Shown here: positions 2,682 through 22,022 of the stretch, piece after piece
Numbering within the stretch: position 1 is the first letter of the stretch
Layout: every line of letters starts with the position of its first letter
Source of the DNA: an uncultured Acidobacteriota bacterium
GTDB lineage: Bacteria; Acidobacteriota; Thermoanaerobaculia; Multivoradales; UBA5704
Assembly: GCA_963757335.1 (NCBI GenBank)
Contig: CAVWRJ010000001.1
Span: 6,917-70,916 of the forward strand
Direction of reading: 5' to 3'
Length of the DNA stretch: 64,000 bases
Made by a program: the position numbers and the translations under genes
Notes under the pieces: model-generated
The model's input: only the letters and a program-made list of their open reading frames with translations
The model's database searches: none
What the model was told of the DNA's origin: nothing

Positions 2682-2746
2682 ATTCCACAGCAGCCTTGCT
2701 TGCAAGCAACCAGCACGCCCTCGCCGCGGACCGGCGGCGTGACGAT

Positions 2747-3169
2747 CTACTCCGGGATCGCCTGCCCGGAACCGCCAAGCTCGGCCGGAAAATCCTTCAG
2801 CTTCGGCAGACCGTCCCGCATCGGCAGCACGGTTTCGGCATAATTGACGTGAACGCCGGGCGTGAACTCAAGCGTCGGAATGGTCGACACGAAGACGTCG
2901 ACGAGGCCGATCGGCGGATGATTGGTCATCAGGTGGCCGCCGCATTTCGCGCAATATTTGCGCTGGCTCAATTCCGTCTTCTGAAATGTCGCGACATGTT
3001 CGGCTCCGGCCGTGATCCGCACCGCCTCCGGCTTCCAAAGGCTGAAGGCGTTCACGGGTCCTCCGGACCAGGAACGGCAGGAGCTGCAATGACAGTAGCC
3101 CATCGCCTCCGGTGATCCAGTGACCTCCAGTTCAACGGCGCCGCAGAAGCAATTTCCAGGATGAGGCAT
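2747..3169 (-). CDS. GFA family protein (glutathione-dependent formaldehyde-activating / CENP-V-like zinc-binding fold)
   Basis: This is an intact 140-aa ORF. It carries the cysteine pattern CFCGAV...CHCSSCRSWSG...CAKCGGHL, characteristic of GFA-domain proteins. Confidence 0.8.
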   Translation of the reverse strand: MPHPGNCFCGAVELEVTGSPEAMGYCHCSSCRSWSGGPVNAFSLWKPEAVRITAGAEHVATFQKTELSQRKYCAKCGGHLMTNHPPIGLVDVFVSTIPTLEFTPGVHVNYAETVLPMRDGLPKLKDFPAELGGSGQAIPE

Positions 3170-3253
3170 GTTTTCTCCTTTCAGGATTATCGGTATCGGT
3201 TAACGAGGCCAGGTCCGGCGATTGGTTCGATCAATGGCCGTGATCGGGACGGT

Positions 3254-4038
3254 TCATCGCCTGGTCAGATCGCGCCAGGGCAGCAACATCGACACGCGCT
3301 CCCTGTAGCGGCGGTATTCGTCTCCGAACATGTCGACCAGGTCGCGCTCTTCCAGGAAAATGCCGACGAAGATGTAGGCCGTGGTCACCGCGGCGAACAG
3401 CAGATGCCCTACGCTCATCGTGGGCGCCGCCCAAAACGCGATGGCAAAGCCCAGATAGATCGGGTGCCGCACGAATTTGTAATACAGCGGCGTCCGGAAG
3501 CGCGGCGTCGGCGTCTCAAGACCGGAGAGATTGTTGGCGACCTGGTGCAATCCAAACAGCTCGAAATGATTGATCAGGAAAGTGCTGCTCAACACGATCA
3601 GCCAGCCCACGAACGACAAGGCCGTGATCGTCACCGCCATTTCCGGCTCCTCGATATGCCAGAGGATTTCCGGCATCGGACGCCACTGCCAGAACAGCAG
3701 GATCAGCGTCAGGCTCGCGAACAGCACATAGGTGCTGCGCTCCACGGGCTTGGGCACATATTGCGTCCACCATTGCTTGAACTGCTTGCGCGCCATCACG
3801 ACTGTGCTGCACGGCGAACAGGGTCATCAGCAGGAGATTGATGATGAGCGCTTCGGCGATCGACGAGGCCGGGCCGTCGTCGATCGTCTTTGGGCACCAC
3901 CAGGCCCGTCACGAAGCCGACGGCATAGAGAAATGTGACGAAAAACACCAGATAGGCGACAAACCCGTAAAGAAATGCGGTAAATCTGAATATTCGATTT
4001 CCCGATAAGTCGGGGCTAATGGCTTGAGACTCGGTCAT
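3254..4038 (-). CDS. Polytopic membrane methyltransferase family protein (ICMT/PEMT-like; MddA-like is possible), two frameshifts
   Basis: The C-terminal 181 aa (ORF 3254..3799) contain FVRHPIYLGFAIAFWAAP...FLEERDLVDMFGDEYRRYRERV, typical of the ICMT-like family. The N-terminus MTESQAISPDLSGNRIFRFTAFLYGFVAYLVFFVTFLYAVGF starts at ATG 4038 with a GGAGA RBS. The middle segment (TIDDGPASSIAEALIINLLLMTLFAVQHS) is only readable in a third frame. Confidence 0.65.
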
Positions 4039-4131
4039 AATCGTCTCCGGTTTGGGCAATAAAGGGGATCGCGACAACCGTCGCGACACCTGAAGGATGC
4101 CCGGAACGCGGCGGCGAGACTTTGCCCGGCG

Positions 4132-4171
4132 CTTGATTTATCCCTGAGACGAACTTGATTATTTCTTGAGA
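4132..4171 (+). promoter_or_regulatory. Four direct CTTGAnn repeats at exact 11-bp phasing in the divergent promoter region upstream of the wHTH-TPR regulator
   Basis: The repeats are CTTGATT at 4132, CCTGAGA at 4143, CTTGATT at 4154 and CTTGAGA at 4165. The block 4121-4173 is about 75% identical by eye to 8111-8161, upstream of the paralogous regulator. Confidence 0.5.
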
Positions 4172-4190
4172 CCCGCCGGTCGGAGCATTC

Positions 4191-5755
4191 ATGCAGTTCA
4201 CATTTGACGATCACACGCTTGATACCGAGCGCCGCGAGTTGCTCCGCGGCGGAGCCGTGATTGCCGTGCAGCCGCAAGTGTTCGACCTACTGGTCTATTT
4301 GGTGCAGAACCGGGAGCACGTCGTCAGCAAGGATGATCTCATCGCCCTGGTCTGGCAGGGCCGGATCGTGTCGGACTCGACCCTCACCAGCCGGATCAAT
4401 GCCGCGCGTACAGCCATCGGCGACAGCGGCAAGGACCAGAAATTGATCCGGACAATTCCGCGAAAGGGCGTTCGCTTCGTTGGCAGTGTGATCGAGCAAC
4501 TTCGCGACCCTCAACCGGCCGCCGCGCCGGTGCAGGAAAGCGTGGCCGCGCTCGGCTCTGCCATTGCCCGAACGGCCGGCGATCGCCGTGCTCCCCTTCA
4601 CCAACATGAGCGGCGAGCGCGGAACAGGAATATTTTTCCGACGGCATCAGCGAGGACATCATCACCGCTCTGTCCAAGCTGCGCTGGTTCTTCGTGATCG
4701 CGCGCAACTCTTCCTTCATCTACAAGGGCAACGCCGTCCATTTGAAGCAGATCGCCGAGGAACTTGGCGTGCGTTACGTCGTCGAGGGCAGCGTGCGGAA
4801 GGACGGCGACCTCGTGCGCATCACGGCGCAGCTCAACGACGCGACGACGGGAAGCCACATCTGGGCGGAGCACTATGACCGGGATCTCACCGACGTTTTT
4901 GCGGTTCAGGACGAGATCACCGATGCCATCGTCGCCACCATCGAGCCAAAGATCTATGTCGCGGAAAATTTCCGTGCCCGGCGCAAGCCGCCAAATAGCC
5001 TGGATGCGTGGGATCTGGTGATGCGGGCCATGTCGCATTTCTGGCGGGTGACCCGGCAGGACAATATGGTGGCGCAGGCACTGCTCGAGAAGGCGATCGC
5101 CATCGACCGGCACTACGGCCAGGCCAACGGCTTGCTCGCCACCAGTCATATGTTTGGCGTTCACATGGGTTGGGCGGATATCACCATCGCGGCGCCTGTC
5201 GCCGAACGCGCCGCGCTGGCGGCGGTCCTGTCCGACAGCCAGGATCCCTGGGCGCACAACGCGCTGGCCAGCGTCTATTTTTCCACGCGGCGGCTGGACG
5301 CTTCAATGGCCGAGTTTGAACTGGCGCTGCAGCTCAACCCGAATTTCTCGCTGGCGCACGGCTATTACGGATTGGCATTGACCTATTGCGGGCGCTGGCA
5401 GGAAGCCCATCAGGCGGCGCAGCATGCGTTACGGCTGAGCCCGCGCGATCCCTTCTCGGCGATCTATTACGGTGTCGCGGCCTATGCGCAGTTTGTCGGC
5501 AAGAACTATCCGGAAGCTATCGGGCTTTCGCGCGAAGCCATCCGGCAACGCAGCGATTTCTCCGGCGGTTATCGGGTGCTGACGGTTGCCGCCGGCATGG
5601 CGGGACAAGTCGACGTCGCCGCGGCCGCTCTGAAAGAGCTGCGCCGCGCGCAACCGAATATCTCGCTCGGCTGGATCGCCAGCCAATTGCCATGGAAGCT
5701 GGACTCCGACCGCGAGCATTATCTGGAGGCCTTCCGCCGGGCGGGCTTGGACTAG
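4191..5755 (+). CDS. Winged-helix (OmpR/CadC-type) DNA-binding domain plus TPR regulator, two frameshifts
   Basis: MQFTFDDHTLDTERRELLRGGAVIAVQPQVFDLLVYLVQNREHVVSKDDLIALVWQGRIVSDSTLTSRINAARTAIGD is a trans_reg_C-like wHTH in frame 0. PAIAVLPFTNMSGE is in ORF 4564. FVIARNSSFIYKG...VVEGSVRK and the TPR-like C-terminal half are in ORF 4694..5755. Confidence 0.7.
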
Positions 5756-5825
5756 CGGCAGGTCAGCGCGGACGCCCGCCGGGCCGCAGCCCGGCGCGCC
5801 GTCGCGGTCATCGATCGAGACGCTG

Positions 5826-6078
5826 CTACCGCGCCCGTGTTTCCGCAGCTTCGTCCAGACCGTAGTCGATCTCACCGCGGCAGATGCCGATGTCCTTTAG
5901 TTCCCGGTCACTGAACAGGCGCAGCGCGGCGAGCTGCGCCTGACGTTCGTGCCGCGCGATCGCCGCGGCAACCAGGCGATCAACGAGGCGGCCTAGCCAC
6001 ACCAGAAAACTGCCAACACTGCTCCGGTTTCGTGAGGAGGCCAGCGGATAGCTGGGGGATATTGCTGAGCATCGTCAT
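5826..6078 (-). CDS. DUF1127-type small protein (probable frameshift between ATG 6078 and the conserved C-terminal part)
   Basis: My manual translation of 6002..5826 gives VWLGRLVDRLVAAAIARHERQAQLAALRLFSDRELKDIGICRGEIDYGLDEAAETRAR*, with the DUF1127 hallmark LSDRELKDIG. At 58 aa it falls below the ORF-track cutoff. A good AAGGA RBS precedes ATG 6078, but that ATG is in another frame. Confidence 0.5.
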
Positions 6079-6177
6079 GTCGAGGTCCTTCGAGAAATTG
6101 GGCTTGATTGCTTGCCTATCCCTAGCCGTTGCGGCGGACCAAGACTTTCAGGGATTTGCGATTTTTGTCCAAATGCC

Positions 6178-6195
6178 CTTGAGATGCTCTTGAGA
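6178..6195 (+). promoter_or_regulatory. Two further CTTGAGA repeats 11 bp apart (third copy of the operator-like motif)
   Basis: CTTGAGA occurs at 6178 and 6189. They are preceded by TTTGTCC (6164-6170), as at the other two sites. The site lies upstream of the minus-strand DUF1127 gene. Confidence 0.35.
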
Positions 6196-6223
6196 CGAAT
6201 GCGCCTTTGTGGATGCGCGACCG

Positions 6224-7081
6224 TCATCCGCGCAGCATCCGCGAAGCTGGCGTCGCCGTGCCGATGGCCGTGGATGTGGTCTTGTCAGCTGCGGAGACGT
6301 GCTGCGCCAGCGTTCGCGCGACTTCTTCGGCGTGAGTCGAAATCATGAAATGGGCCGCTCCGCCGATGGTAACGGCCGAGGCTCTGGTGCATTGGGCCAG
6401 CAGCTGGTTGGTTCGCTGAACCGCCGGATGGCTGTTCTCGCCCCACAGCACGAGCGTGGGGATGTCGATTTTGGCGAGCGAAGGCCGCGTCAGCCGGAAG
6501 CCATAGCCGCTTGCCCAATCCAGAATGTTGGTCGCCGTGGTCTCAATGGCGTAGTCGCGAACGCGCTGCGGCCAACCGGCAAACGTGCCCGCGCCGCCGT
6601 AGAAATCGATCATCTGCTCGATCGCGTTGCGGTCGCCGGCCTGGAACAGGCTGAAATAGATGTCGGTCATTTCGCGAAAAGACCGATACTGCGAGTACTC
6701 TCCCATCTGCCGCAGTATTTCCGGCGCGGGCGCCTCCAGGATCGCGAGACTCAGCAATGGCACCTTGTTCCGGAGCGCGACCGCAAGCGCGCTGAGGCCG
6801 CCGAACGAGTGGCCGACGAGGTGCACCGGACAAGCCGCGCGCCGAATCACCGACTCAAGAATTTCGGCTTCATGACCGATGTCGCTATCGACGAGCGTGC
6901 GGCGCTCGGCGGTCCCTCCGTAGCCGAGCAGGCTCGTCGTCACGCATCGGAAGCGGTTCTGCCACTGGGAGATGATCGGCCGCCACGCGGCGCCGGTGCT
7001 GCAGGAGCCCGGCACAAGCACGATGGTCGGCCCCTGCCCGCTCTCGTCGTAGTCGATATTGCCGCGCCTGTCTTCGATCAT
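6224..7081 (-). CDS. Alpha/beta hydrolase
   Basis: This is an intact 285-aa ORF. It shows TIVLVPGSCSTGAAW, the nucleophile elbow VHLVGHSFGG, and a C-terminal GGAAHFMISTH carrying the catalytic His region. Confidence 0.8.
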   Translation of the reverse strand: MIEDRRGNIDYDESGQGPTIVLVPGSCSTGAAWRPIISQWQNRFRCVTTSLLGYGGTAERRTLVDSDIGHEAEILESVIRRAACPVHLVGHSFGGLSALAVALRNKVPLLSLAILEAPAPEILRQMGEYSQYRSFREMTDIYFSLFQAGDRNAIEQMIDFYGGAGTFAGWPQRVRDYAIETTATNILDWASGYGFRLTRPSLAKIDIPTLVLWGENSHPAVQRTNQLLAQCTRASAVTIGGAAHFMISTHAEEVARTLAQHVSAADKTTSTAIGTATPASRMLRG

Positions 7082-7188
7082 GATTTCGTCTTTCGCTCGT
7101 TACGGCTGCGCGTCGGTGAGCGACCGATGGCTGAACAGCCATCGGCGATCAGCCGTCCGCATCGTTCTCCGGCGCGAGTACGATGCGT

Positions 7189-8032
7189 TCAGCGCTTGAC
7201 GATGACGACTTCCAGATATTCGCTTGGAACGATCATGGTGCCGTCGGTGGCGGATTCATGCGGCCGATCAGCGCCAGCAGATCGCGGCTGAGCCCCTGGC
7301 CGATTTGTTTCGTCGAGCGCCGCAAAGGCTTTCAGCATCGGGCCGTAATAGTTCCTGAATATCTCCAGGAAATGCTCGGGCGAGCGATAGCGGAACGTGA
7401 AATGGCGGCGCTCGGCCTTGATCGAGGCGGCCGCCGCCCCGAACATCTCGGTGATGCGCGACGGCGTGCCCCAGAGCGCGGGTGATTTCGCGCCCGCCGG
7501 CGGCGGCAGGTACTTGCCCAGCGTCTTGAAAAGCTGGCCGATGAAGCCTTCCGGCGTCCAGTTGGCCAGGCCGATCTTGCCGCCGCTCCTGCAAACCCGC
7601 AGCAGCTCGGCTGGCCGCCTTATCCTGGTCGGGCGTGAACATGACGCCGAAGGTCGAGACCACGACGTCGAAGGCGGCATCGGCAAACGGCAATGCCTCG
7701 GCATCCGCCACCTTGAACTCGACCGGCAGACCTTCGGCCTTGGCACGAAGTTGTCCGCGTTCAAGAAGGCTCGGCACGTAGTCCGTGGACACGACATCGC
7801 ACCAGCGGCGCGCGGCGGCCAGGGTCGCATTTCCGTTTCCGGCCGCGACATCCAGAACCTTCTGTCCCGGCCTGATATCGAGTGCTTCGCAGAGCTCCTC
7901 GCCGACGATCTGCAATGTCGTACCGACGATGGCATAGTCGCCTGACGACCAGGCGGCATGTTGCCTGGTCTTGAGTGCCGCCAGGTCGCGAATGGTGTCT
8001 GGTGTCCGGCGCTGCGGGTTTGGCTGCGGCAT
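7189..8032 (-). CDS. Class I SAM-dependent methyltransferase, frameshifted
   Basis: ORF 7268..8032 has the SAM-binding motif KVLDVAAGNGNATL and DVVVSTFGVMF. The C-terminal half (ELLRVCRSGGKIGLANWTPEGFIGQLFKTLGKY...TMIVPSEYLEVVIVKR) is in the frame of ORF 7189..8073. Confidence 0.7.
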
Positions 8033-8121
8033 GTGTTGTGGTGGTCATGTTCGCTCCTGTTTTGACGCTGCATTGAGCGGCGGATGATGCCGGGGCCGCG
8101 ACCAAATGACTTTGTCCTGCG

Positions 8122-8161
8122 CTTGACTTGGGCTTGAGACAGCCTTGATTATTCCTTCGGG
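8122..8161 (+). promoter_or_regulatory. Four direct CTTGAnn-type repeats at 11-bp phasing upstream of the second wHTH-TPR regulator
   Basis: The repeats are CTTGACT at 8122, CTTGAGA at 8133, CTTGATT at 8144 and CTTCGGG at 8155. The arrangement and flanks (TTTGTCCTGCG) match those at 4121-4173. Confidence 0.5.
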
Positions 8162-8187
8162 CGGGCGGCACGGATTTGAGGCACGAC

Positions 8188-9761
8188 GTGCAATTTGTCT
8201 TTGCTGATCATACGCTCGATACCGACCGGCGCGAGCTGCGTCGCGGATCGCGAGCCCGTCGCCGTCGAACCGCAGGTATTCGACCTGCTGGTCTATCTGG
8301 TGCAGAATCGCGATCGCGTCGTCAGCAAGGATGATCTCATTGCTTCGGTGTGGGAGGGCCGCATCGTATCGGAATCAACGCTGACCAGCCGGATCAACGC
8401 CACGCGAACGGCGATCGGTGACAACGGCAAGGAACAGAAGCTGATCCGCACCGTCGCGCGCAAGGGCCTTCGCTTCGTCGGCTCGTGCACGAGGAGTCCA
8501 ACCGGCGTTGAACCGGCGCCGGCTCCCCGATCCAGCTGACGAATCGCCCCCTGCAGCCAATCCTTTGCCGCTGTCCGACCGGCCGGCCATCGCCGTGCTG
8601 CCCTTCACCAACATGAGCGGCGATCCGGAGCAGGAGTATTTTTCCGACGGCATCAGCGAGGACATCATCACCGCGCTTTCCAAGTTGCGCTGGTTCCTGG
8701 TGATCGCGCGCAACTCTTCCTTTGTCTACAAGGGCAAGGCTGTCCACATGAAGCAGGTCGCCGAGGAGCTCGGCGTCGGCTATGTGGTCGAGGGCAGCGT
8801 GCGCAGGAGCGGCGAGCAGGTGCGCATCACGGCGCAGCTCAACGACGTCACCACCGGCAGCCACATCTGGGCCGAGCACTATGATCGCAACCTCACGGAT
8901 GTGTTCGCCGTGCAGGACGACATCACCGAGTCCATCGTTGCCGCGATCGAGCCGCAGCTCTATGCCGCGGAAAGCTTTCGCGCCCGCCGCAAACCGCCCG
9001 ACAGCATGGATGCCTGGGATCTGGTGATGCGGGCACTGTCGTATTACTGGCGCGTGACACGGCAGGACAATGTCGTTGCGCAGGCGCTGCTTGAGAAAGC
9101 GATCGCGATCGACCCGAATTACGGCCAGGCGCTCGGCGTTCTCGCCACCAGCCAGACCTTTGGCGCCCATATGGGTTGGGCCGACATGGCGACGACGATA
9201 CCGATTGCCGAGCGGGCGGCGCTGGCCGCGATATTGGCTGACAGCGAGGACCCCTGGGCGCATAACGCATTGGGCTGCGTTTATCTGTTCACACGGCGCT
9301 TTGACGATTCGCTGGCCGAATTTGAATTGGCGCTGCAGCTCAATCCAAGTTTTTCCCTGGCGCAGGGTTACTACGGGTTGGCGTTGTCGTATTGCGGGCA
9401 CTGGGAGGAAGCCGACCTCGCCGCGCAGCGCGCGCTGCGGTTGAGCCCGCGCGATCCGTTTTCCGCGATCTATTGCGGCATCGCCGCCTATGCCCAGTTC
9501 GTCGGGCGCAATTACGACGAGGCCATGCGTTTTTCCCGCGAAGCCATCCGGCAACGCAGCGATTTCGTCGGCGCCCACCGGGTGCTGACGGCCGCCGCGG
9601 GCATGGCCGGGCATACGGAAGCAAGCTCGGTTGCCCTGCAGGAGCTTCGCCGGGCCCAGCCAAATATTTCGCTGGCCTGGATCGCGACCGAAATGCCGAT
9701 GGGGCGCGAGGTCGACAAGGAGCACTATCTGGAAGGGCTTCGCCGCGCGGGATTGCGATAA
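8188..9761 (+). CDS. Winged-helix (OmpR/CadC-type) plus TPR regulator, paralogue of 4191..5755, two frameshifts
   Basis: A GTG at 8188 gives VQFVFADHTLDTDRRELRRG. PVAVEPQVFDLLVYLVQNRDRVVSKDDLIASVWEGRIVSESTLTSRINATRTAIGD follows in ORF 8195. PAIAVLPFTNMSGDPEQEYFSDGISEDIITALSKLRWFLVIARNSSFVYKG and the TPR half are in ORF 8508..9761. It is near-colinear with the first paralogue. Confidence 0.7.
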
Positions 9762-15444: not shown

Positions 15445-15700
15445 AGGTCAGTCACGGCTGAATCGCCGGGAGGCGATGGCTCATCCCAGAGTGCGGATTC
15501 GAGCCTTGGCCTGAGCAGTTTGCTGAGATCGCCAGCAGCGCGAGTGCACAACTGAGCCCACTGCGGTAGTCTGCTGACAGGGCGGCAAGCCGCCGCTCAT
15601 TGGCAGTCCCGTTAGCGGCACAGAGATCCTAGCGAGCATTTGCGGCACCAACTATGGCACGACACAGCATACAAACCGACCGGATGAGTGTGTTGGTTCC

Positions 15701-16645
15701 GTGAACTCCTTAGCGAAGAACCCACAGACTGACCTTTGGAAGTTGCGCTGTGGACCAGCGGGTCTCCACGCATTCAACCGTACCACCGGCCTGAACGTCC
15801 TGCTCGACGAGATCCCTGTTCCAGCCTCACTATACTCGCGGGCGCCTCGTCACGTCTCGATTGCACTCACGAACCGGTGCGACTTGGCCTGCGCTCATTG
15901 CTACGCGCCGAAGGCCCGAGCCGAGCTTCGGTACGACATGGTTACGGCCTGGCTCGCCGAGCTGGATGCGAACGGCACTCTTGGAGTCGGCTTTGGCGGA
16001 GGTGAGCCCACGCTCTACCCAGAATTCGCCAGCCTGTGTCAGCATGCGGCGCGCGAGTCGCAGCTCTCTGTGACGTTCACCACGCATGGGCACCACATTG
16101 ACGAAGCCATGGCCGATGAGCTTCGTGGGAGCGTCCACTTCATCCGCTTGAGCATGGATGGAGTCGGCCATACCTACGAATCCATCCGGCGACGCTCCTT
16201 CCACGACCTGCTCGCGCGCATGAAACTCGTGCGAACTATCGCCAGCTTCGGCGTAAACTTCGTCGTGAACGAACACACGTTACCCGATCTCGATGAAGCG
16301 GTCGCTATCGCCGCCGACCTCGGGAGCTGCGAGCTGCTGCTACTTCCACAGATGGCGACCCGCAGCTGCTCTCGGCTCGACGACGACACGTTGCAGGGCC
16401 TGCGAGGGTGGGTCGAGGCGTATCGAGGGAGTCTGAGGCTCTGCATCAGCGAGGGAAGCGCGGAGGGATTCCGCACCTGTGACCCAGTCGAGGCAGAGCG
16501 AGGTCTTCGCGCCTATGCGCACATCGACGCAGCGGGCGTGCTGAAGTCGAGCTCGTACCACGCGACCGGAGTGCAGATCGGTGGTGAAGGCGTGCTGAGC
16601 GCGCTTGATCAACTTGCTCACAACCTCGGGGAGAACCACACATGA
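15701..16645 (+). CDS. Radical SAM domain protein (no SPASM-type C-terminal cluster evident)
   Basis: The CxxxCxxC motif CDLACAHC is at 15878-15901, within SIALTNRCDLACAHCYAP. GVGFGGGEPTLYPEF is the glycine-rich SAM motif. The start is GTG. The stop overlaps the next ATG. Confidence 0.85.
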   Translation: MNSLAKNPQTDLWKLRCGPAGLHAFNRTTGLNVLLDEIPVPASLYSRAPRHVSIALTNRCDLACAHCYAPKARAELRYDMVTAWLAELDANGTLGVGFGGGEPTLYPEFASLCQHAARESQLSVTFTTHGHHIDEAMADELRGSVHFIRLSMDGVGHTYESIRRRSFHDLLARMKLVRTIASFGVNFVVNEHTLPDLDEAVAIAADLGSCELLLLPQMATRSCSRLDDDTLQGLRGWVEAYRGSLRLCISEGSAEGFRTCDPVEAERGLRAYAHIDAAGVLKSSSYHATGVQIGGEGVLSALDQLAHNLGENHT

Positions 16646-17037
16646 AGATCTGGTACCAGCATGGCTCCGAGCACTCCGCGAACCTGGTGATGATCGGCCA
16701 CTTCGAGGACGCGACCGAAGCAACGAAGGCGAAGGAGATCATCGACGCGCTCACGAAGCAGGTCGAGGAAGACCAGGACAAGGGCAGCCCCTTGGAACGA
16801 TACGGCAAGGAGATGCTCGACCTGCTGGACCGTCTGAACGTCTCGTCGATCGGGCCGCGGGAGCTTGAGCAGTTCGCCTACGAAGTCAGCGTGAAAGTAG
16901 AGGGAAACAAGATCGTCCTCAAAACGGAGGAAATCGACATCTCCGCCTTCCTCAAGGTCATGTTCAATCGCGGCGCGCGCATCGAGGTCTACTCCGCTCA
17001 CAACCATCCCGACGCCAGTTACGGGAGAGGTCGTTGA
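16642..17037 (+). CDS. Hypothetical 131-aa acidic protein, translationally coupled to the radical SAM gene
   Basis: ATGA start/stop overlap at 16642-16645. The sequence is MKIWYQHGSEHSANLVMIGHFEDATEATKAKEIIDALTKQVEEDQDK.... There is no recognisable motif. The next gene starts 14 nt after its stop. Confidence 0.6.
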   Translation: MKIWYQHGSEHSANLVMIGHFEDATEATKAKEIIDALTKQVEEDQDKGSPLERYGKEMLDLLDRLNVSSIGPRELEQFAYEVSVKVEGNKIVLKTEEIDISAFLKVMFNRGARIEVYSAHNHPDASYGRGR

Positions 17038-17050
17038 GCATGGAGCCGCC

Positions 17051-19531
17051 ATGCCAGCACTGAATTGGGACGCCTTCGCCAGGTTGCCAGGGAGCGCCGA
17101 GAAGAACTTCGAGCTGCTCTGTCGGGGCGTCGTGCGCCACAACTTCGGTAGCTTTGGCGTGCTTCGCGCCCTCGCGAACCAGCCAGGCGTCGAGTTCCAC
17201 CTGAAGCTGGATCGACGTTGTGACGTTCTTGGGGACCCGGGCCGTTGGTGGGGCTGGCAGTGCAAGTGGTACGACCTTCCGGCAAGCGGCGACCTGGGAA
17301 CAACCCGGCGAGCCAAGATCGAGGACGGAATTCGCAAGACGGAAACCCATGTTCCTGGCGTAACGGACTGGGTCTTGTGGACGCGCCGCCCGCTGACCAG
17401 CGCCGACCAAGAATGGTTCAGGGGCATCGCCTCGAAGATGACGTTGCACCTCTGGACGGCGGACGAGATCGACAACTTCCTCGTGGGTCAAGCCGCCGTT
17501 CTGCGTGGCACCTACTTCGGCGAGCTTGTACTGACGCCAGAGCTCCTTCGGGAACGGCATGAGCAGGCGGTCGCCCCAATTCGAGCGAGATGGCAACCTG
17601 AAGTCCACCACGTCGTAGATGCTGAGCGCGAGTTGCGCCGCATGCTCGGTGAGTCAGGCTCCTGGGACGAGCTCCGCGCGCTCGCCGTAGACCTGCGCTC
17701 GATGGTGCAACTCATGGAGGGCGCGCCAACGGTGCCCACAGCCCTTGCGCCCCTAGTGGCGACTGTTGTCGATACGTCGAGGCAGTCTGCTGATGCGCTC
17801 GATCGAATCGCTACTGGGATCCGCGATGGCGATCTCGACCTGCTTCGCGACGACCTCACCTCACAGCCACGCGTCCTTGCGCCCGCCGTCGCCACGGCCC
17901 CTCGACGACTGCGTTCTGGGAACCACCGGGCCGGTCTGTATGCGACGAACGCCGTGACGGGATGTCGTGAGACGTTGCGATTGCTCACCGACATCGAGGC
18001 TGCGTTCTCGTCCCGGGTCGTCGCGGTTCTTGCTCCAGCAGGCTGCGGCAAGACGCAACTTGCAGCGCAGCTCACGGCAGGCACGGATGCGCGCCCTCAC
18101 GGTGTGCTGCTGCATGGTCGTGACCTGCACGCGAACCACACGCTCGACGACTTGGCGCGACGGGTGTCGATCGCGGCTCAGCCAGTTCAGAGCATGGAGT
18201 CTCTTCTCGCGGCCGTGGACGCCGCCGGACAGCGCACTCACCACCGGTTGCCGGTGGTCATCGATGGGCTCAACGAGTCAGAAGATCCACGTGCATGGAA
18301 GCCCCTGCTCGCTGCGCTGGAGACGACACTCGCGAAGTACCCCTACGTGATGTTGGTCTGTACGTTGCGACCTGAGTTTGCGGGCGAGACGCTTGCCGAT
18401 GGAACACGACGCGTCGAGATCAAGGGCTATGGGGCGGAAACGCTCGAGGCCATCCGCGAGCACTTTCGTTATTGGAAGATCGACGCGACTGATGTGTCGC
18501 TGCCCGGATTCCTTCAGCACCCGTTGACCCTGCGGCTCTTCTGCGAGGTGACGAACCCCACGCGGCAAAAAGTGGTCGGTATCGACGCGATGCCGGGCTC
18601 TCTGACTGCTGTGTTTGACCGCTACCTTGATCAAGTGAGCGATCGTGTCGCTGAGCTGGCGCCTCGAACGCACCGGTACTTCGCGCAAGACGTTCGCGCG
18701 GCTTTAGCGGTCATCGCCAACACTCTCTGGGACACGCGCAGTCGTTCCCTAGACATCGACGAGTTGCGCCGGGCCCTTAACGACGCACAGCGGCCGTGGG
18801 ACCAGAGTCTCGTGCGCGCGCTCGAGCACGAAGGAGTCCTGCTGCGCATGCCCTCCACAGGGAACGGCATGTACGTCCCCGTATACGATCGACTCGGAGG
18901 GCACATCATCGCCAACGCGCTGCTCGCGAAGCACGGACAGGTCGGCTTCGAGACATGGATCCGAGAGCCTTCAACGACGACGTTGTTGGCGGGCGACTAC
19001 AACGACCGGCATCCGCTCGCCAACGATGTCGTGTACTCGTTGGTTGGGCAGATCCCTCGGCGATTCCACTCAAAGCAGCTCTGGCAGTTGGTTGATGAGC
19101 CGCTCCGCTCTCGTGCATTGCGCACCGCTGCGAGGCTCGAAGCGGCCTATTTGGACGCGACAACGGTCGAGGCCCTACTTGACGTCGTGCGGCAAGGAGA
19201 CGCCGGGCTTCTCGAGCAGCTCTGGGAGGTGCGAGGAACGCGAGATCACCCGCTCAACGCGGAGGCACTAGACCGAGTGCTGCGGCCGATGAGCGTCGCG
19301 GACCGCGATCTGCGCTGGACGGAGTGGCTTCGGAGGAAGCAAGACGAAGTGCTCCGCAACCTGGAATACCTGGAGCGTCGGTGCCGACAGGGGGAACGCG
19401 GACGGGCGATCGGCTTCGTGCGCGTTGGGTCATGTGGACGCTTACGAGCACGGTTCGACAGCTGCGGGACCAAGCGACTCGCGTGCTCTACTGGTTCGGT
19501 CGAGTCGACCCCGAGGGGCTCTTTGAGCTGA
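17051..19531 (+). CDS. NLR-like protein: N-terminal Mrr/PD-(D/E)xK-like nuclease domain plus NACHT-type P-loop NTPase (probably continuous with the next ORF)
   Basis: The nuclease-like signature is FELLCRGVVRHNFG...QPGVEFHL...WWGWQCKWY, with QxK at 17258-17266. Walker A is VLAPAGCGKTQL (18032-18055). Walker B is LPVVIDGLNES (18254-18277). MLVCTLRPEF resembles the NACHT TSRP motif. The last ~40 codons look non-protein-like. Confidence 0.8.
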   Translation: MPALNWDAFARLPGSAEKNFELLCRGVVRHNFGSFGVLRALANQPGVEFHLKLDRRCDVLGDPGRWWGWQCKWYDLPASGDLGTTRRAKIEDGIRKTETHVPGVTDWVLWTRRPLTSADQEWFRGIASKMTLHLWTADEIDNFLVGQAAVLRGTYFGELVLTPELLRERHEQAVAPIRARWQPEVHHVVDAERELRRMLGESGSWDELRALAVDLRSMVQLMEGAPTVPTALAPLVATVVDTSRQSADALDRIATGIRDGDLDLLRDDLTSQPRVLAPAVATAPRRLRSGNHRAGLYATNAVTGCRETLRLLTDIEAAFSSRVVAVLAPAGCGKTQLAAQLTAGTDARPHGVLLHGRDLHANHTLDDLARRVSIAAQPVQSMESLLAAVDAAGQRTHHRLPVVIDGLNESEDPRAWKPLLAALETTLAKYPYVMLVCTLRPEFAGETLADGTRRVEIKGYGAETLEAIREHFRYWKIDATDVSLPGFLQHPLTLRLFCEVTNPTRQKVVGIDAMPGSLTAVFDRYLDQVSDRVAELAPRTHRYFAQDVRAALAVIANTLWDTRSRSLDIDELRRALNDAQRPWDQSLVRALEHEGVLLRMPSTGNGMYVPVYDRLGGHIIANALLAKHGQVGFETWIREPSTTTLLAGDYNDRHPLANDVVYSLVGQIPRRFHSKQLWQLVDEPLRSRALRTAARLEAAYLDATTVEALLDVVRQGDAGLLEQLWEVRGTRDHPLNAEALDRVLRPMSVADRDLRWTEWLRRKQDEVLRNLEYLERRCRQGERGRAIGFVRVGSCGRLRARFDSCGTKRLACSTGSVESTPRGSLS

Positions 19532-21165
19532 CCATAGACTCGTTGGCCGTGAACGACGCCTACGTCGGTGAGCGCATGCTCGCGGCCACCTACGGCGTCG
19601 TGATGAGCCACCAGCAGGCAGACGCCGACTTCGAGGTCCATCTGGCGCCACTTCTCGATCGGCTTGCGAATGCGCTCGTGGACTCGTCGGCGACCGCGCC
19701 AACCAATCACTACCTAGCGCGCCTCTATGTACGGGGCATCCTCGCGTGCGCTGAGAAATTCTACGCGTCTGCACTTCCCGAGCGTTTGCGCAGTACATGG
19801 TCGTTCAGTATGCCCGCGCCAGTGTCGCCGATCGCGAAAGACGACCCACGAGCCGACGAAGTGGGGCGGACGCTCAACATGGACTTCGAGAACTACACGC
19901 TGGGGCGCCTAGTCGAGGATCGCTCCAACTACGACATGAGTCATCAGGGGCACCAGGCGGCCGTTGCCCACGTGCTCGGCGCCGTGTGGGCGCTCGGCTG
20001 GAGAGCTGCGACATTCGATACGCTGGATCGTGCCATCGCGGGTGATGCTTTTCGGTCTGAAGGCCGTGGGCATCGGCCTCGCGCAGAACGCTACGGGAAG
20101 AAGTACGGCTGGATCGGCTTCTTCACGTACGCCGGGCTGCTCGAAGCACAAGGGCTCTTACCGTGCGGCGATCGGCCGTTCTCTGACGTTGACATCGATC
20201 CCTCGTTCCCCGAACAACCGCCCGTCGACGGGGAGGTGGCCGTCCCGTTGGCATGGCTGGCTCCGTCCATCAAGAGCCACGAGCGCTGGGTCCGAGAGAG
20301 CCAGACATCCGTGCCTCGCACACTCCTCGTTCGGCAGAGGATCGGCGAGCACGATGGGCCTTGGGTTGCCGTTCACGGCTTTGTTAAGGCAGAGGACAGG
20401 GTCCTCGGGCGTGAGGCATGGGCCTTCATCTCTGCGTTGGTGACATCCGAGCAGAGCGCACCGCGACTGGTGGCCGCCCTCAACGCTGGCACACGACCAT
20501 GGGCGGCTCGTGACGTCCCGAGTGACCACTACACATTCGCCAGCGAGATCCCCTGGCACCCGAGCTTTGCCGCCGAAGTGCTTGCCGAATCCGGTCCGGA
20601 GCATGCCTATCGAGAATACGTTCGCGTCGGCACAGGCAACCTGGAGGTCGAGGTCCTCGCGCACGACTACGCTTGGGAGAGCTACCACAGCGAGATGAAC
20701 CGTGCGGGCAGCGCGCGAGTGCCATCGCGCTGCTTCTCTAGCCGGTTCGATCTCCGCAGCGCACCACAGAGCTTTGACCAATTCCTTGCCGACGGAACTC
20801 GGGCTACGGTCACGCTCAGAGGCGTCGACGGACTCGATGGAGACGTCCTGTACGTTCGCGAAGATCTGCTCCGGCAGTATGTGGGCGAGCGCGCCGTCGT
20901 CTGGTTCGCGTTCGGCGGGCGAGAGCTGCGGCCCTATCCGCCATCACCTCCGCAATGGCTCGTGGATGCTCAGCGGCAACGGGCAAACGAGTGGTGCGAG
21001 GTGCTGACCGAGGCAGACCTCAAGCAGAGTGCAAAACCGCCTGAAAAAAAGAAGGCAGGCAAGCGGCAGCCGGCATCGAGAGGCACCGCGAAGAAGCTAT
21101 CCGCCAAGAAGGTCCCGAAGCAGGCTGCATCCAAGAGTACGAAACCGGCCGGGAGGAAGCCGTGA
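19324..21165 (+). CDS. C-terminal (putative sensor) portion of the NLR-like protein, or a separate overlapping gene; Lys-rich basic tail
   Basis: It overlaps the previous ORF by 208 nt in another frame. Protein-like sequence starts about LRARWVMWTLTSTVRQLRDQATRVLYWFG. If it is a separate gene, the only ATG candidate is 19432. It ends KQSAKPPEKKKAGKRQPASRGTAKKLSAKKVPKQAASKSTKPAGRKP*. Confidence 0.6.
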   Translation: MASEEARRSAPQPGIPGASVPTGGTRTGDRLRARWVMWTLTSTVRQLRDQATRVLYWFGRVDPEGLFELTIDSLAVNDAYVGERMLAATYGVVMSHQQADADFEVHLAPLLDRLANALVDSSATAPTNHYLARLYVRGILACAEKFYASALPERLRSTWSFSMPAPVSPIAKDDPRADEVGRTLNMDFENYTLGRLVEDRSNYDMSHQGHQAAVAHVLGAVWALGWRAATFDTLDRAIAGDAFRSEGRGHRPRAERYGKKYGWIGFFTYAGLLEAQGLLPCGDRPFSDVDIDPSFPEQPPVDGEVAVPLAWLAPSIKSHERWVRESQTSVPRTLLVRQRIGEHDGPWVAVHGFVKAEDRVLGREAWAFISALVTSEQSAPRLVAALNAGTRPWAARDVPSDHYTFASEIPWHPSFAAEVLAESGPEHAYREYVRVGTGNLEVEVLAHDYAWESYHSEMNRAGSARVPSRCFSSRFDLRSAPQSFDQFLADGTRATVTLRGVDGLDGDVLYVREDLLRQYVGERAVVWFAFGGRELRPYPPSPPQWLVDAQRQRANEWCEVLTEADLKQSAKPPEKKKAGKRQPASRGTAKKLSAKKVPKQAASKSTKPAGRKP

Positions 21166-21511
21166 CCACGCCGCCGGGCAGTTGCCTATGGAGCCGACCG
21201 CTGAAGGGCCGGCGCTGGATTCGCCGTAGACTAGACCGCCTCCACGTTGACCACCAACTGCGCCGCCGACCTCGGGGCGGGGCGCCAGGGGGATACCGAA
21301 GTCCGCCAAGGTGGGAAGCCCGGGCGCCACCGTCGTCCAGAGCGCAGCCCTGCTCAACTCTTGCAGGGCCGAGGGATAGGCGGGTGGCCCCACAGCCGAC
21401 CGCGCAAAGCGATAGGCTCAGGCGTAAGATAGGGTGCGATGCGCTGAAACAGCCTGAGACAAAAGTCGGGGGATGTTTTCTCTCCTTGTTCCCTGGTTGT
21501 TCCTCTCACTC

Positions 21512-21539
21512 ACGACATCTACCCATAAACTATTATAAT
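21512..21539 (+). promoter_or_regulatory. Sigma70-like promoter candidate facing the repeat array
   Basis: ACGACA (21512-21517), a 16-bp spacer, then a perfect TATAAT (21534-21539). It sits in the most AT-rich stretch of the islet. Confidence 0.3.
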
Positions 21540-21543
21540 CAGA

Positions 21544-21578
21544 CCTTACTGGAGTAAGGCCTCCCGCCCAGGGGGAGG
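21544..21578 (+). other. Two adjacent short hairpins immediately downstream of the promoter candidate
   Basis: Hairpin 1 is CCTTAC-TGGA-GTAAGG (21544-21559). Hairpin 2 is CCTCCC-gcccagg-GGGAGG (about 21560-21578). Confidence 0.4.
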
Positions 21579-21583
21579 GACCC

Positions 21584-21728
21584 ACCCGCCGCGAGACACG
21601 AGCACCCGCCGCGAGACACTAACTCCCCTCACGAGACACTAAGCATCGACAGCGAGACACTAAGCGTCGACGGCGAGACACCAGCTGCCTGCCGCGAGAC
21701 ACAGACGGCTCGCCACGAGACACAGCCG
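21584..21728 (+). repeat. Seven tandem 20-21-bp units, each with the core CGAGACAC plus 12-13 variable nt
   Basis: CGAGACAC starts at 21592, 21612, 21632, 21653, 21674, 21695 and 21716. The spacings are 20, 20, 21, 21, 21 and 21. Confidence 0.9.
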
Positions 21729-22022
21729 GCCGGCGCGCGGTGACTCGTGGCAGGCGCACGGTGTTCCGTGGCAGGCGCATGGTGTTCCGTGGCAGGCGCA
21801 TGGTGTTCCGCGACAGGCGCGCGGTGACTCACGGCAGGCGCATGGTGTTCCGCGGCAGGCGCGCGGTGACTCGCGGCAGGCGCATGGTGTTCCGCGGCAG
21901 GCGCGCGGTGACTCACGGCAGGCGCATGGTGTTCCGCGGCAGGCGCGCGGTGACTCGCGGCAGGCGCATGGTGTTCCGCGGCAGGCGCGCGGTGACTCGC
22001 AGCAGGCGCATGGTGTTCCGTA
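21729..22022 (+). repeat. Fourteen tandem 21-bp units of two alternating types (42-bp higher-order repeat)
   Basis: Type A is GCAGGCGCATGGTGTTCCGCG (8 copies). Type B is GCAGGCGCGCGGTGACTCGCG (6 copies). The units are nearly identical. The bottom-strand cores CGAGTCAC and CGGAACAC resemble the top-strand core of the preceding block. Confidence 0.9.

What the first reader, a model, noticed from the sequence alone, without database searches (positions are those of the whole stretch)
15461..21560. Low-G+C islet: radical-SAM enzyme + 131-aa unknown + Mrr-nuclease/NACHT NTPase, a candidate undescribed defence module
Seen in the sequence: about 6 kb of visibly lower G+C lies between a very high-G+C membrane-protein gene (ends 15444) and the SPFH operon. 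Single 60-nt lines that I counted gave 60% at 16621 versus 78% at 13501. The block carries same-strand, tightly packed ORFs.
- A 314-aa radical-SAM protein has CDLACAHC at 15878-15901 and a GGGEPTL motif. It has no SPASM-like Cys cluster.
- A 131-aa acidic protein with no motif I recognise follows. Its ATG overlaps the rSAM stop (ATGA, 16642-16645).
- 14 nt later comes a large protein. It has a Mrr/PD-(D/E)xK-like N-terminus (FELLCRGVV..GVEFHL..WWGWQCKWY) and a NACHT-type NTPase (APAGCGKT, VVIDGLNES, CTLRPEF).

Established knowledge: nuclease-fused STAND/NACHT proteins (the Avs and bNACHT families) are antiphage sensor-effectors. Radical-SAM enzymes are known in defence essentially only as viperins.

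Inference: the coupled rSAM plus small protein plus NLR-like nuclease does not match any named system I know. The rSAM could make a modified nucleotide or small molecule, or it could modify the small protein or the NLR. No integrase, transposase or tRNA flanks the islet.
Basis: partly seen in the sequence, partly recalled or inferred. Interest (0 to 1): 0.85.

Follow-up and report, generated by a model that had tools for sequence, protein, structure and literature searches.

The report
Known Avs2 anti-phage operon, frameshifted
The three genes are a horizontally acquired copy of an anti-phage operon described in 2024 (radical-SAM Avap1, DUF6375 Avap2, nuclease-NTPase sensor Avs2), so it is not a new system, and its sensor gene is broken here by a one-base deletion.

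Summary
The 314-aa radical-SAM gene is at 15701-16645. The 131-aa gene at 16642-17037 overlaps it by ATGA. A large nuclease/NTPase gene starts at 17051.

The module is not undescribed. The 131-aa protein is Pfam DUF6375 (E 3e-42). The large protein matches PADLOC Avs2 models (E 3e-93 after repair). Béchon et al. 2024 (Nat Commun 15:9860) described and tested this operon as Avap1 (radical SAM) + Avap2 (DUF6375) + Avs2.

In 80 genome loci anchored on DUF6375, the radical-SAM gene lies directly upstream in 79. Avs2 lies directly downstream wherever the contig continues, except in one orphan locus. Two of these genomes are drawn in that paper's figure.

One G is missing from the run at 19390-19394; adding it restores a 1371-aa protein. 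Whether this is a real inactivation or an assembly error cannot be decided here.

The 5.6-kb module (about 15591-21202) is foreign. Its GC3 is 73% against 91-92% in neighbouring genes, and it is 84-89% DNA-identical to copies in other phyla.

Avap1 most resembles peptide-modifying maturases (SkfB, SuiB), not viperin. The roles of Avap1 and Avap2 remain unknown.

The parts
15591..15700 (+). Upstream non-coding leader or promoter region that travels with the module
   Evidence: DNA homology to the copies in L005 and L010 begins at 15591-15615. Conserved blocks upstream of the start codon are visible in the alignment. No consensus sigma-70 promoter was found here.
15701..16645 (+). avap1: radical-SAM protein, 314 aa, GTG start. 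CxxxCxxC is at 15878-15901 and GGGEPTL at 15995-16015.
   Evidence: It matches Pfam PF04055 at 59.4 bits against a cut-off of 29.5. Homologues of 314 aa align over 100% of its length. The AF2 model has pLDDT 87. The best PDB matches are SkfB and SuiB, followed by viperins. It lies directly upstream of DUF6375 in 79 of 80 genome loci.
16642..17037 (+). avap2: DUF6375 protein, 131 aa. Its ATG overlaps the avap1 stop codon (ATGA).
   Evidence: It matches Pfam PF19902 at 145 bits, E 2.7e-42. The search found 1075 homologues, the closest 74-88% identical across phyla. The 4-nt overlap with avap1 is conserved in 68 of 79 loci. The AF2 model is a ferredoxin-like alpha/beta fold with pLDDT 75 and no significant PDB neighbour.
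17051..21165 (+). avs2: the Avs2 gene, interrupted. Adding one G restores a 1371-aa ORF.
   Evidence: The two ORFs 17051-19531 and 19324-21165 hit successive parts of PADLOC Avs2 model PDLC02164. The repaired protein gives one continuous match across the junction, at E 2.6e-93. It also matches PDB 9o4e, named Avs2, at E 2e-18. Homologues in 60 of 68 assessable loci are intact at 1316-1586 aa.
17051..17440 (+). N-terminal Mrr-like PD-(D/E)xK nuclease effector domain (aa 1-130), with E48 and Q70-x-K72
   Evidence: A profile of 33 homologues matches the N-terminal nuclease domain of EcAvs4 (8dgf residues 1-103) at E 7.8e-5, including the GWQxKxYD motif. K72 corresponds in position to KpAvs2 K71, whose K71A mutation was used as the nuclease-dead control. 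Pfam Mrr_cat itself gave no hit.
18011..19390 (+). STAND P-loop NTPase module (about aa 321-780). Walker A GCGKT is at 18032-18055 and Walker B VVIDGLNES at 18254-18280.
   Evidence: The motifs are located. NCBIfam Avs2 aligns to residues 323-765 and PDB 9o4e to 326-852. The Pfam NACHT hit is below threshold.
19390..19394 (+). G5 run where one base is missing relative to intact homologues. This is the site of the frameshift that uncouples the C-terminal sensor.
   Evidence: The alignment with L005, L009, L010 and L007 shows a single 1-nt gap in the window at CAG-GGGGAAC. Inserting one G restores a 1371-aa ORF.
19393..21165 (+). C-terminal domain of Avs2 (aa about 781-1371), the presumed phage-protein sensor. 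It is out of frame with the upstream part in this assembly.
   Evidence: It matches positions 1102-1460 of PADLOC PDLC02164. It is the fastest-diverging part across loci, at 27-40% identity where the other parts are 40-55%. Its dN/dS is the highest of all segments, 0.20-0.38. The sensor role is taken from KpAvs2.

Best explanation
The locus is a horizontally acquired copy of the three-gene Avap1-Avap2-Avs2 anti-phage operon (KpAvs2 type).

The mechanism below is taken from the characterised Klebsiella system and inferred here by homology:
- The C-terminal domain of Avs2 binds a phage protein, either the large terminase or small phage-specific proteins.
- The STAND NTPase then drives assembly.
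- The N-terminal Mrr-like nuclease degrades DNA indiscriminately, which aborts the infection.
- Avap2 (DUF6375) is constitutively bound to the helical bundle between the nuclease and the NTPase, and is needed for full defence.
- Avap1 (radical SAM) is needed only against some phages. Its chemistry is unknown.

My inference is that Avap1 more likely acts on a protein or peptide (Avap2 or Avs2) than on a nucleotide.

In this window the avs2 reading frame is broken by a 1-nt deletion in a G run. This separates the nuclease-NTPase part from the sensor. As assembled, the system should be non-functional, unless the deletion is a homopolymer assembly error.
For: Family assignment:
- The 131-aa protein is PF19902, and the radical-SAM protein is PF04055 only.
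- Both halves of the large gene hit PADLOC Avs2. The repaired protein scores E 2.6e-93 with an alignment running across the junction.
- It matches PDB 9o4e 'Avs2', and its nuclease domain matches that of EcAvs4.

Literature:
- PMC11564622 defines Avap1 as a radical-SAM protein and Avap2 as a PF19902 protein next to Avs2. It shows defence, abortive infection, Avap2-Avs2 binding and the phage-dependent need for Avap1.

Recurrence:
- 80 genome loci were anchored on DUF6375. The radical-SAM gene lies upstream in 79. Avs2 lies downstream in every locus whose contig continues, except the orphan L033.
- The ATGA overlap is conserved in 68 of 79 loci.
- L045 (Nitrospirae JdFR-85) and L032 (Syntrophobacterales Delta_02) are genomes shown in that paper's Fig. 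1B. Their proteins are 53-67% identical to the window's (L045 C-terminal part 34%).
- The defence context of homologues includes type I RM, Bil plus RM and BREX.

Horizontal transfer:
- DNA homology is limited to 15591-21202, at 84-89% identity to copies in a Thermoanaerobaculaceae MAG and in Acidithiobacillus ferriphilus. GC3 is 73% against 91-92% in the flanks.

Frameshift.

Avap1:
- By sequence profile (E 4e-14) and by fold (E 1e-15, TM 0.73), the nearest solved structure is the RiPP maturase SkfB, followed by SuiB. Viperins rank below.
Against: - No direct alignment with the KpAvs2 proteins themselves was possible, because the paper's supplement is not held. The link runs through Pfam and PADLOC models and through two genomes named in the paper's figure.
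- The NCBIfam Avs2 equivalog is far below its cut-off (127 and 67 bits against 1000), so this clade is distant from the Avs2 proteins on which that model was built.
- As assembled, avs2 is broken, so function in this organism is doubtful.
- The window's neighbours are housekeeping genes, not a defence island.
- The protein-modification idea for Avap1 rests only on structural neighbours. Viperins also match well (TM about 0.65, rmsd 3.3 Å), and Avap1 lacks the auxiliary-cluster cysteines of SkfB and SuiB.
Confidence: 0.93

Rival explanations
1. This is a previously undescribed defence system in which a radical-SAM enzyme, an unknown small protein and an NLR-like nuclease form a new type of module.
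For: PADLOC 2023 has no model for the small protein, and NCBIfam has none either. RefSeq annotates homologous large proteins only as 'ATP-binding protein' or 'hypothetical protein'.
Against: The same three-gene architecture, defined by the same Pfam families, is named and experimentally characterised in PMC11564622. The window's proteins are homologous to loci from genomes shown in that paper.
Confidence: 0.02
2. Avap1 is a viperin-like enzyme that makes a chain-terminating or signalling nucleotide analogue. This would add a second, small-molecule arm to the Avs2 response.
For: PADLOC pVip models hit at E 9e-18. Viperin structures are good fold matches (TM 0.62-0.66, rmsd about 3.3 Å).
Against: - The hits cover only the radical-SAM core (profile positions 2-149 of 257).
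- The NCBIfam viperin model scores 50.8 bits against a cut-off of 180, and covers only positions 4-165 of 281.
- SkfB and SuiB rank above viperins by both sequence and fold.
- The authors of PMC11564622 report no pVip-type nucleotides in cells expressing the operon, and no NTP pocket in their model.
Confidence: 0.12
3. The avs2 frameshift is an assembly or sequencing error in a G homopolymer, and the organism carries an intact, working operon.
For: - It is a single 1-nt gap in a G run, and the rest of the gene is open to the same stop position as in homologues.
- The part downstream of the shift is still 86% identical in protein to the closest intact homologue. Its dN/dS of 0.38 is only slightly above the 0.20-0.31 seen between intact pairs.
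- avap1 and avap2 are intact.
Against: - There is no read-level evidence either way.
- About 8 of 68 assessable homologous loci also look interrupted, and a Vibrio plasmid copy is split by an IS3 element. Real inactivation of this toxic gene is therefore common.
- The one independent contig with the identical Avap2 ends about 180 nt before the site.
Confidence: 0.5
4. The frameshift is a genuine mutation. The operon is a recently inactivated remnant, for example selected because Avs2 is toxic. Alternatively it is a phase-variable or programmed -1 frameshift site.
For: Disrupted copies exist elsewhere. dN/dS downstream of the shift is slightly raised in the window lineage, 0.38 against 0.26-0.31. 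A GGG-decoding tRNA could in principle re-pair one base back on A-GGG-GG.
Against: There are no further stops or indels in 1.77 kb downstream, so any inactivation is recent. Five G is short for phase variation. Homologues have different, in-frame sequences at this site, which argues against a conserved programmed shift.
Confidence: 0.45

Closest known systems
KpAvs2 operon (Avap1 + Avap2 + Avs2) of Klebsiella pneumoniae S_15PV, Béchon et al. 2024, Nat Commun 15:9860
   Same: [quoted passage not shown] The genes lie on the same strand and are tightly packed. The catalytic Lys positions almost coincide (K72 and K334 here, K71 and K337 in KpAvs2). The total length is similar (1371 aa repaired, about 1352 aa in KpAvs2).
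   Different: The window copy comes from a high-G+C environmental bacterium. It was not aligned directly with the Klebsiella proteins. Its Avap2 lacks a 5-residue loop that is present in its closest relatives. Its avs2 is frameshifted. It sits among housekeeping genes rather than in a defence island.
Canonical single-gene Avs2 (AVAST type 2; Gao et al. 2020 and 2022; PDB 9o4e; NCBIfam NF041813)
   Same: [quoted passage not shown] It also has a nuclease effector at the N-terminus.
   Different: Canonical Avs2 works alone, whereas this clade carries two accessory genes. The NCBIfam equivalog score is far below its cut-off.
Prokaryotic viperins (pVips)
   Same: Both have a radical-SAM core with CxxxCxxC, a similar partial TIM barrel and a defence context.
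   Different: There is no match to the viperin C-terminal half, which holds the nucleotide. Scores are below the family cut-off. No ddh-nucleotides were reported for the KpAvs2 operon.
RiPP radical-SAM maturases SkfB (6efn) and SuiB (5v1q)
   Same: These are the best PDB matches by profile and by fold, with alignments extending over the N-terminal beta-strand region and the C-terminal hairpin-helix.
   Different: Avap1 has no auxiliary Fe-S cluster cysteines (no SPASM or twitch cluster). Its N-terminal domain is much shorter than a full RiPP recognition element. No precursor peptide gene is present; the only candidate substrates are Avap2 and Avs2.

Membership tests
Avap1-Avap2-Avs2 operon (KpAvs2 type) | An Avs2 homologue with an N-terminal Mrr-like nuclease, a STAND NTPase and an Avs2-type C-terminal domain | tested here: met
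   PADLOC Avs2 PDLC02164 scores E 2.6e-93 on the repaired protein and both halves hit it separately. PDB 9o4e Avs2 matches at E 2e-18. The nuclease profile matches the EcAvs4 nuclease at E 7.8e-5. Walker A and B motifs are present.
Avap1-Avap2-Avs2 operon (KpAvs2 type) | An adjacent gene with a PF19902 (DUF6375) domain, i.e. Avap2 | tested here: met
   145 bits against a gathering score of 27.5, E 2.7e-42, full length.
Avap1-Avap2-Avs2 operon (KpAvs2 type) | An adjacent gene with a PF04055 (radical SAM) domain, i.e. Avap1 | tested here: met
   59.4 bits against a cut-off of 29.5. The CxxxCxxC and GGGEPT motifs are present.
Avap1-Avap2-Avs2 operon (KpAvs2 type) | The three genes form one same-strand operon that recurs as a unit, including in genomes the authors list | tested here: met
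   The genes have a 4-nt overlap and a 13-nt gap. The order rSAM-DUF6375-Avs2 holds in 79 of 80 loci. L045 and L032 come from genomes named in Fig. 1B of PMC11564622.
Avap1-Avap2-Avs2 operon (KpAvs2 type) | An intact Avs2 reading frame | tested here: not met
   A 1-nt deletion at 19390-19394 splits the gene into 826-aa and 613-aa ORFs. Whether this is real or an assembly error cannot be tested here.
Avap1-Avap2-Avs2 operon (KpAvs2 type) | Anti-phage protection by abortive infection, and physical binding of Avap2 to Avs2 | not testable with these tools
   This needs experiments or multimer structure prediction. It is known only for KpAvs2.
Avs2 as defined by NCBIfam NF041813 (equivalog) | A whole-protein score at or above the curated cut-off of 1000 bits | tested here: not met
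   126.9 bits for the N part and 67 bits for the C part. The protein is homologous but lies outside that narrow equivalog.
NACHT (Pfam PF05729) | A score at or above the gathering threshold | tested here: not met
   20.6 bits against 26.7, E 4e-4. It is a STAND NTPase, but NACHT membership in the strict sense is not shown.
Mrr_cat (Pfam PF04471) | A Pfam match to the Mrr catalytic domain | tested here: not met
   There is no Pfam hit even at E 10 for residues 1-147. The (E)...QxK motif and the match to the EcAvs4 nuclease domain support a PD-(D/E)xK fold. The HHpred assignment to Mrr is reported for KpAvs2.
Prokaryotic viperin (pVip) | A full-length match including the C-terminal nucleotide-binding half, at the family cut-off | tested here: not met
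   NF038283 scores 50.8 bits against 180 and covers profile positions 4-165 of 281 only. PADLOC pVip covers positions 2-149 of 257 only.
Radical-SAM/SPASM or twitch peptide maturases | Cysteines for an auxiliary Fe-S cluster in a C-terminal SPASM or twitch domain | tested here: not met
   Only C113 and C260 are conserved outside CxxxCxxC among 38 homologues. All NCBIfam maturase models are far below their cut-offs. The nearest PDB relatives are nevertheless SkfB and SuiB.

The most novel reading that the evidence does not exclude
Avap1 is a protein-directed radical-SAM enzyme that installs a post-translational modification on Avap2 or on Avs2 itself. On Avap2, the target would be its invariant N-terminal W..GSEHS.NLVMIG segment, which was modelled with low confidence, or the conserved SAH motif near its C-terminus. 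The modification would tune the activation threshold or the phage range of a bacterial NLR-like receptor. This would be the first case of radical chemistry licensing an NLR-type immune sensor. The present evidence is only suggestive: translational coupling of avap1 and avap2 in 68 of 79 loci, SkfB and SuiB as nearest structures, and no nucleotide product reported.
Probability: 0.25. Interest if true: 0.65.

Novelty: new member of a known kind. Interest (0 to 1): 0.2.

Why it matters
As a discovery it matters little, because the system type was published and tested in 2024. The locus has three uses.
- It is one more, apparently inactivated, member of a module that moves between phyla. The 5.6-kb module shares 84-89% DNA identity with copies in an Acidobacteriota lineage and in Acidithiobacillus.
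- The survey made here shows that DUF6375 is almost never found without the radical-SAM gene and Avs2, and that avap1 and avap2 are translationally coupled. Together with the SkfB/SuiB-like fold of Avap1, this sharpens the open question of what the two accessory proteins do.
- Annotation pipelines still call these genes 'radical SAM protein', 'DUF6375 family protein' and 'ATP-binding' or 'hypothetical protein'. Similar loci will therefore keep being mistaken for novel systems.

Tried and rejected
- Mobility signals. There are no tRNA genes and no Rfam families. No convincing flanking direct or inverted repeats were found. The only exact repeat is a 16-mer at 16309 and 21261, with one copy inside avap1, which is the wrong geometry for att sites.
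- Promoter and terminator scans gave counts at chance level.
- Pfam on the nuclease domain and on the C-terminal sensor found nothing, even at E 10.
- Foldseek of the Avap2 model against the PDB returned only generic ferredoxin-like and de novo designed folds at E above 0.05, which is uninformative.
- The paper's supplement, wanted for the KpAvs2, Avap1 and Avap2 sequences, is not held, so no direct alignment with the type system was made.
It could not settle whether the frameshift is an error or a mutation.
- dN/dS was computed to look for decay downstream of the frameshift. The value is only slightly raised, which is inconclusive.
- PADLOC and Pfam scans of neighbouring ORFs, run to test for a defence island, found none.
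- A programmed -1 frameshift was considered and judged unlikely, because homologues are in frame with different sequences at the site.
Full report
**Observation**

The + strand between 15.7 and 21.2 kb carries tightly packed ORFs:
- a 314-aa ORF at 15701-16645, with a GTG start;
- a 131-aa ORF at 16642-17037, whose ATG overlaps the preceding stop codon (ATGA);
- 13 nt later, an ORF starting at 17051.

CDLACAHC is at 15878-15901 and GGGEPTL at 15995-16015. FELLCRGVV, GVEFHL, WWGWQCKWY, APAGCGKT, VVIDGLNES and CTLRPEF all lie in the third gene.

The G+C drop is real but modest. The module is 0.630 against a window mean of 0.680, and about 5% of equally long windows are as low. Codon position 3 is more telling: 73% G+C in the module against 91-92% in the flanking glycosyltransferase, membrane-protein and SPFH genes. 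There is no tRNA and no Rfam family.

The third gene is not one ORF. It is split into 17051-19531 (826 aa) and 19324-21165 (613 aa) in different frames. Both pieces match successive parts of the same PADLOC Avs2 profile.

Alignment with four intact close homologues shows a single missing base in the G run at 19390-19394. Inserting one G gives an uninterrupted 1371-aa protein ending at 21165. That protein aligns continuously across the junction with PADLOC Avs2 PDLC02164 at E 2.6e-93.

**Identity of the genes**

- Gene 1 has only the generic Radical_SAM domain (PF04055, 59 bits). NCBIfam models for mycofactocin, NirJ, PqqE, MoaA, viperin and others all hit only the core, far below their cut-offs.
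- Gene 2 is a full-length DUF6375 (PF19902, 145 bits, E 2.7e-42).
- Gene 3 is an Avs2. It matches the PADLOC Avs2 models and the solved structure 9o4e, named 'AVAST type 2 anti-phage system protein Avs2' (E 2e-18 over residues 326-852).
  - Its N-terminal 114 residues align with the N-terminal nuclease of EcAvs4 (8dgf, E 7.8e-5), including the GWQxKxYD motif.
  - Pfam NACHT is below threshold (20.6 against 26.7 bits).
  - Pfam Mrr_cat gives no hit.
  - The NCBIfam Avs2 equivalog is far below its cut-off of 1000 bits.
  - The protein is therefore an Avs2-family STAND protein from a clade distant from the first-described Avs2 proteins.

**Literature**

A full-text search for DUF6375 returns one work: Béchon et al. 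2024, Nat Commun 15:9860 (PMC11564622). Its contents, are as follows.
- The other two genes are a radical-SAM protein (Avap1) and a PF19902/DUF6375 protein (Avap2).
- About 5% of Avs2 homologues have Avap2, and most of those also have Avap1.
- The operon protects E. coli by abortive infection with DNA degradation. The nuclease K71A and NTPase K337A mutations abolish defence.
- KpAvs2 alone is weak.
- Avap2 binds the helical bundle between the nuclease and the NTPase, before and after infection.
- Avap1 is dispensable against SECphi18 but needed against T2.
- No viperin-type nucleotides were detected, and the roles of both accessory proteins are declared unknown.

No later paper in the library mentions Avap1 or Avap2. 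The window's K72 (QxK) and K334 (GCGKT) lie at almost the same positions as the mutated KpAvs2 residues.

**Recurrence**

DUF6375 has 1075 homologues at E ≤ 1e-3. The closest are 74-88% identical across Acidobacteriota, Myxococcota, Chloroflexota, Actinomycetota and Acidithiobacillia.

A scan of one genome per species, using the DUF6375 alignment, returned 80 loci. tblastn with the window's proteins gave these results:
- The radical-SAM gene lies immediately upstream in 79 of 80 loci.
- Avs2 lies immediately downstream in every locus whose contig continues. The exception is the orphan L033.
- All three proteins co-diverge, from 86/86/88% identity down to about 45/45/40%.
- The C-terminal part of Avs2 diverges fastest.

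The 4-nt avap1/avap2 overlap is conserved in 68 of 79 loci, and Avs2 is intact (1316-1586 aa) in 60 of 68 assessable loci. L045 (Nitrospirae bacterium JdFR-85) and L032 (Syntrophobacterales bacterium Delta_02) come from genomes named in Fig. 1B of the paper as carrying KpAvs2-operon homologues. This is the bridge to the published family.

Homologous copies sit in defence contexts: inside a type I RM system, next to Bil and RM systems, and next to BREX on Vibrio plasmids, where the Avs2 is split by an IS3 element.

**Origin**

blastn of the whole window against all loci finds homology only between 15591/15615 and 21170/21202. Identities are 88.7% to a Thermoanaerobaculaceae MAG, 83% to another Acidobacteriota MAG and 84% to Acidithiobacillus ferriphilus. 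Together with the GC3 contrast, this defines a 5.6-kb module recently exchanged between distant lineages. About 100 nt of conserved upstream leader travels with it.

The neighbours in the window are housekeeping-type genes: an ABC transporter, TPR, LysR, GT2/sulfotransferase and SPFH. None has a PADLOC hit. The module is therefore a solitary insertion, not part of a defence island.

**Frameshift: real or error**

All three genes are under purifying selection, with dN/dS of 0.10-0.38. The segment downstream of the shift gives 0.38 against the closest homologue, compared with 0.20-0.31 between intact pairs. This is a slight and inconclusive rise.

There are no further defects in the remaining 1.77 kb. 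The lesion is therefore either very recent or a homopolymer assembly error. The only independent contig with the identical Avap2 ends about 180 nt before the site. I put roughly even odds on the two, and about 5% or less on a programmed or phase-variable shift.

**Mechanism**

The following is shown elsewhere (KpAvs2) and inferred here by homology. The C-terminal sensor binds a phage protein. The STAND NTPase assembles. The Mrr-like nuclease degrades DNA and the infection aborts. Avap2 is a constitutive partner on the inter-domain helical bundle.

New here:
- Avap1 models well (pLDDT 87). Its nearest solved relative, by sequence profile (E 4e-14) and by fold (E 1e-15, TM 0.73), is the RiPP maturase SkfB, followed by SuiB. 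Viperins rank lower (TM about 0.65).
- Avap1 has no auxiliary-cluster cysteines.
- Avap2 is a small ferredoxin-like alpha/beta protein with no informative structural neighbour.
- Across 80 sequences, the universally conserved residues of Avap2 cluster in an N-terminal W..GSEHS.NLVMIG.F segment and a C-terminal SAH motif. The start of the N-terminal segment (residues 1-12) is modelled with low confidence.

I infer, with about 25% confidence, that Avap1 acts on a protein substrate (Avap2 or Avs2) rather than on a nucleotide. This remains untested.

**Verdict**

The claim of novelty is not: this is a new, frameshifted and horizontally acquired member of a published and experimentally characterised system. 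Interest is low. What remains of interest is the still-unknown chemistry of Avap1 and the role of Avap2.

Noticed in passing
window 21583-22020: An array of about 21 head-to-tail units of 20-21 nt lies between the end of avs2 and the 3' end of the minus-strand SPFH gene. The first seven units each carry CGAGACAC, and these are all seven occurrences of that octamer in the window. They are followed by 14 units alternating GGCAGGCGCGCGGTGACTC and GGCAGGCGCATGGTGTTCC (14 matches against 0.06 expected; TRF period 42 x 7, 91% match). The array lies outside the DNA shared with other Avs2 operons. ORFs are open in three frames but have no Pfam hit. It could be a phased binding-site array or a heptad-repeat coding region. 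It is unexplained.
   Followed up: partly
window 16780-16785 (after Avap2 residue 47): The window's Avap2 lacks a 5-residue loop (G-x-L-V-x) that is present in all 21 close homologues aligned. More distant homologues (about 50% identity) also lack it, so it is probably a tolerated loop variant rather than decay.
   Followed up: partly
L085 (Vibrio parahaemolyticus plasmid pLH80-1) 8045-14731: The same operon occurs on a family of Vibrio plasmids next to BREX genes (brxL, pglZ). In this copy the Avs2 gene is split by an IS3 transposase into two 'hypothetical proteins'. This is another naturally inactivated copy.
   Followed up: no
L033 10001-10561 (Phycisphaerae MAG): This is the only one of the 80 genome loci where DUF6375 has neither the radical-SAM gene nor an Avs2 neighbour. 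The DUF6375 reading frame runs on to 186 aa, and a 554-aa ORF ends at its start codon. It may be a different partner or a fusion.
   Followed up: no
window 16309-16324 and 21261-21276: An exact 16-nt direct repeat, CGCCGCCGACCTCGGG, has one copy inside avap1 and the other about 60-90 nt beyond the end of the shared module. About 0.02-0.05 such repeats are expected by chance in this region (my estimate). The geometry does not fit attachment sites.
   Followed up: no
window 15701-16645: The collection's own gene call for the radical-SAM gene of this contig is only 235 aa (P0141, 75% coverage). Homologues of 314 aa align from residue 1, so the GTG at 15701 is the likely true start.
   Followed up: partly
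window about 2800-8500: A second, equally low-G+C stretch (minimum 0.619 for a 5.7-kb window) carries several ORFs of 226-443 aa with no Pfam or PADLOC hit: 1862-3115, 3161-3841, 6209-7291, 7189-8073 (minus strand) and 8394-9725 (minus strand). It may be another acquired region.
   Followed up: partly
window 17441-18010 and 19393-21165 compared with the rest of the module: Synonymous divergence from the closest homologue is uneven along the module. dS is about 0.2 in the helical-bundle and C-terminal segments, against 0.32-0.49 in avap1, avap2, the nuclease and the NTPase. This suggests recombination between module variants.
   Followed up: no
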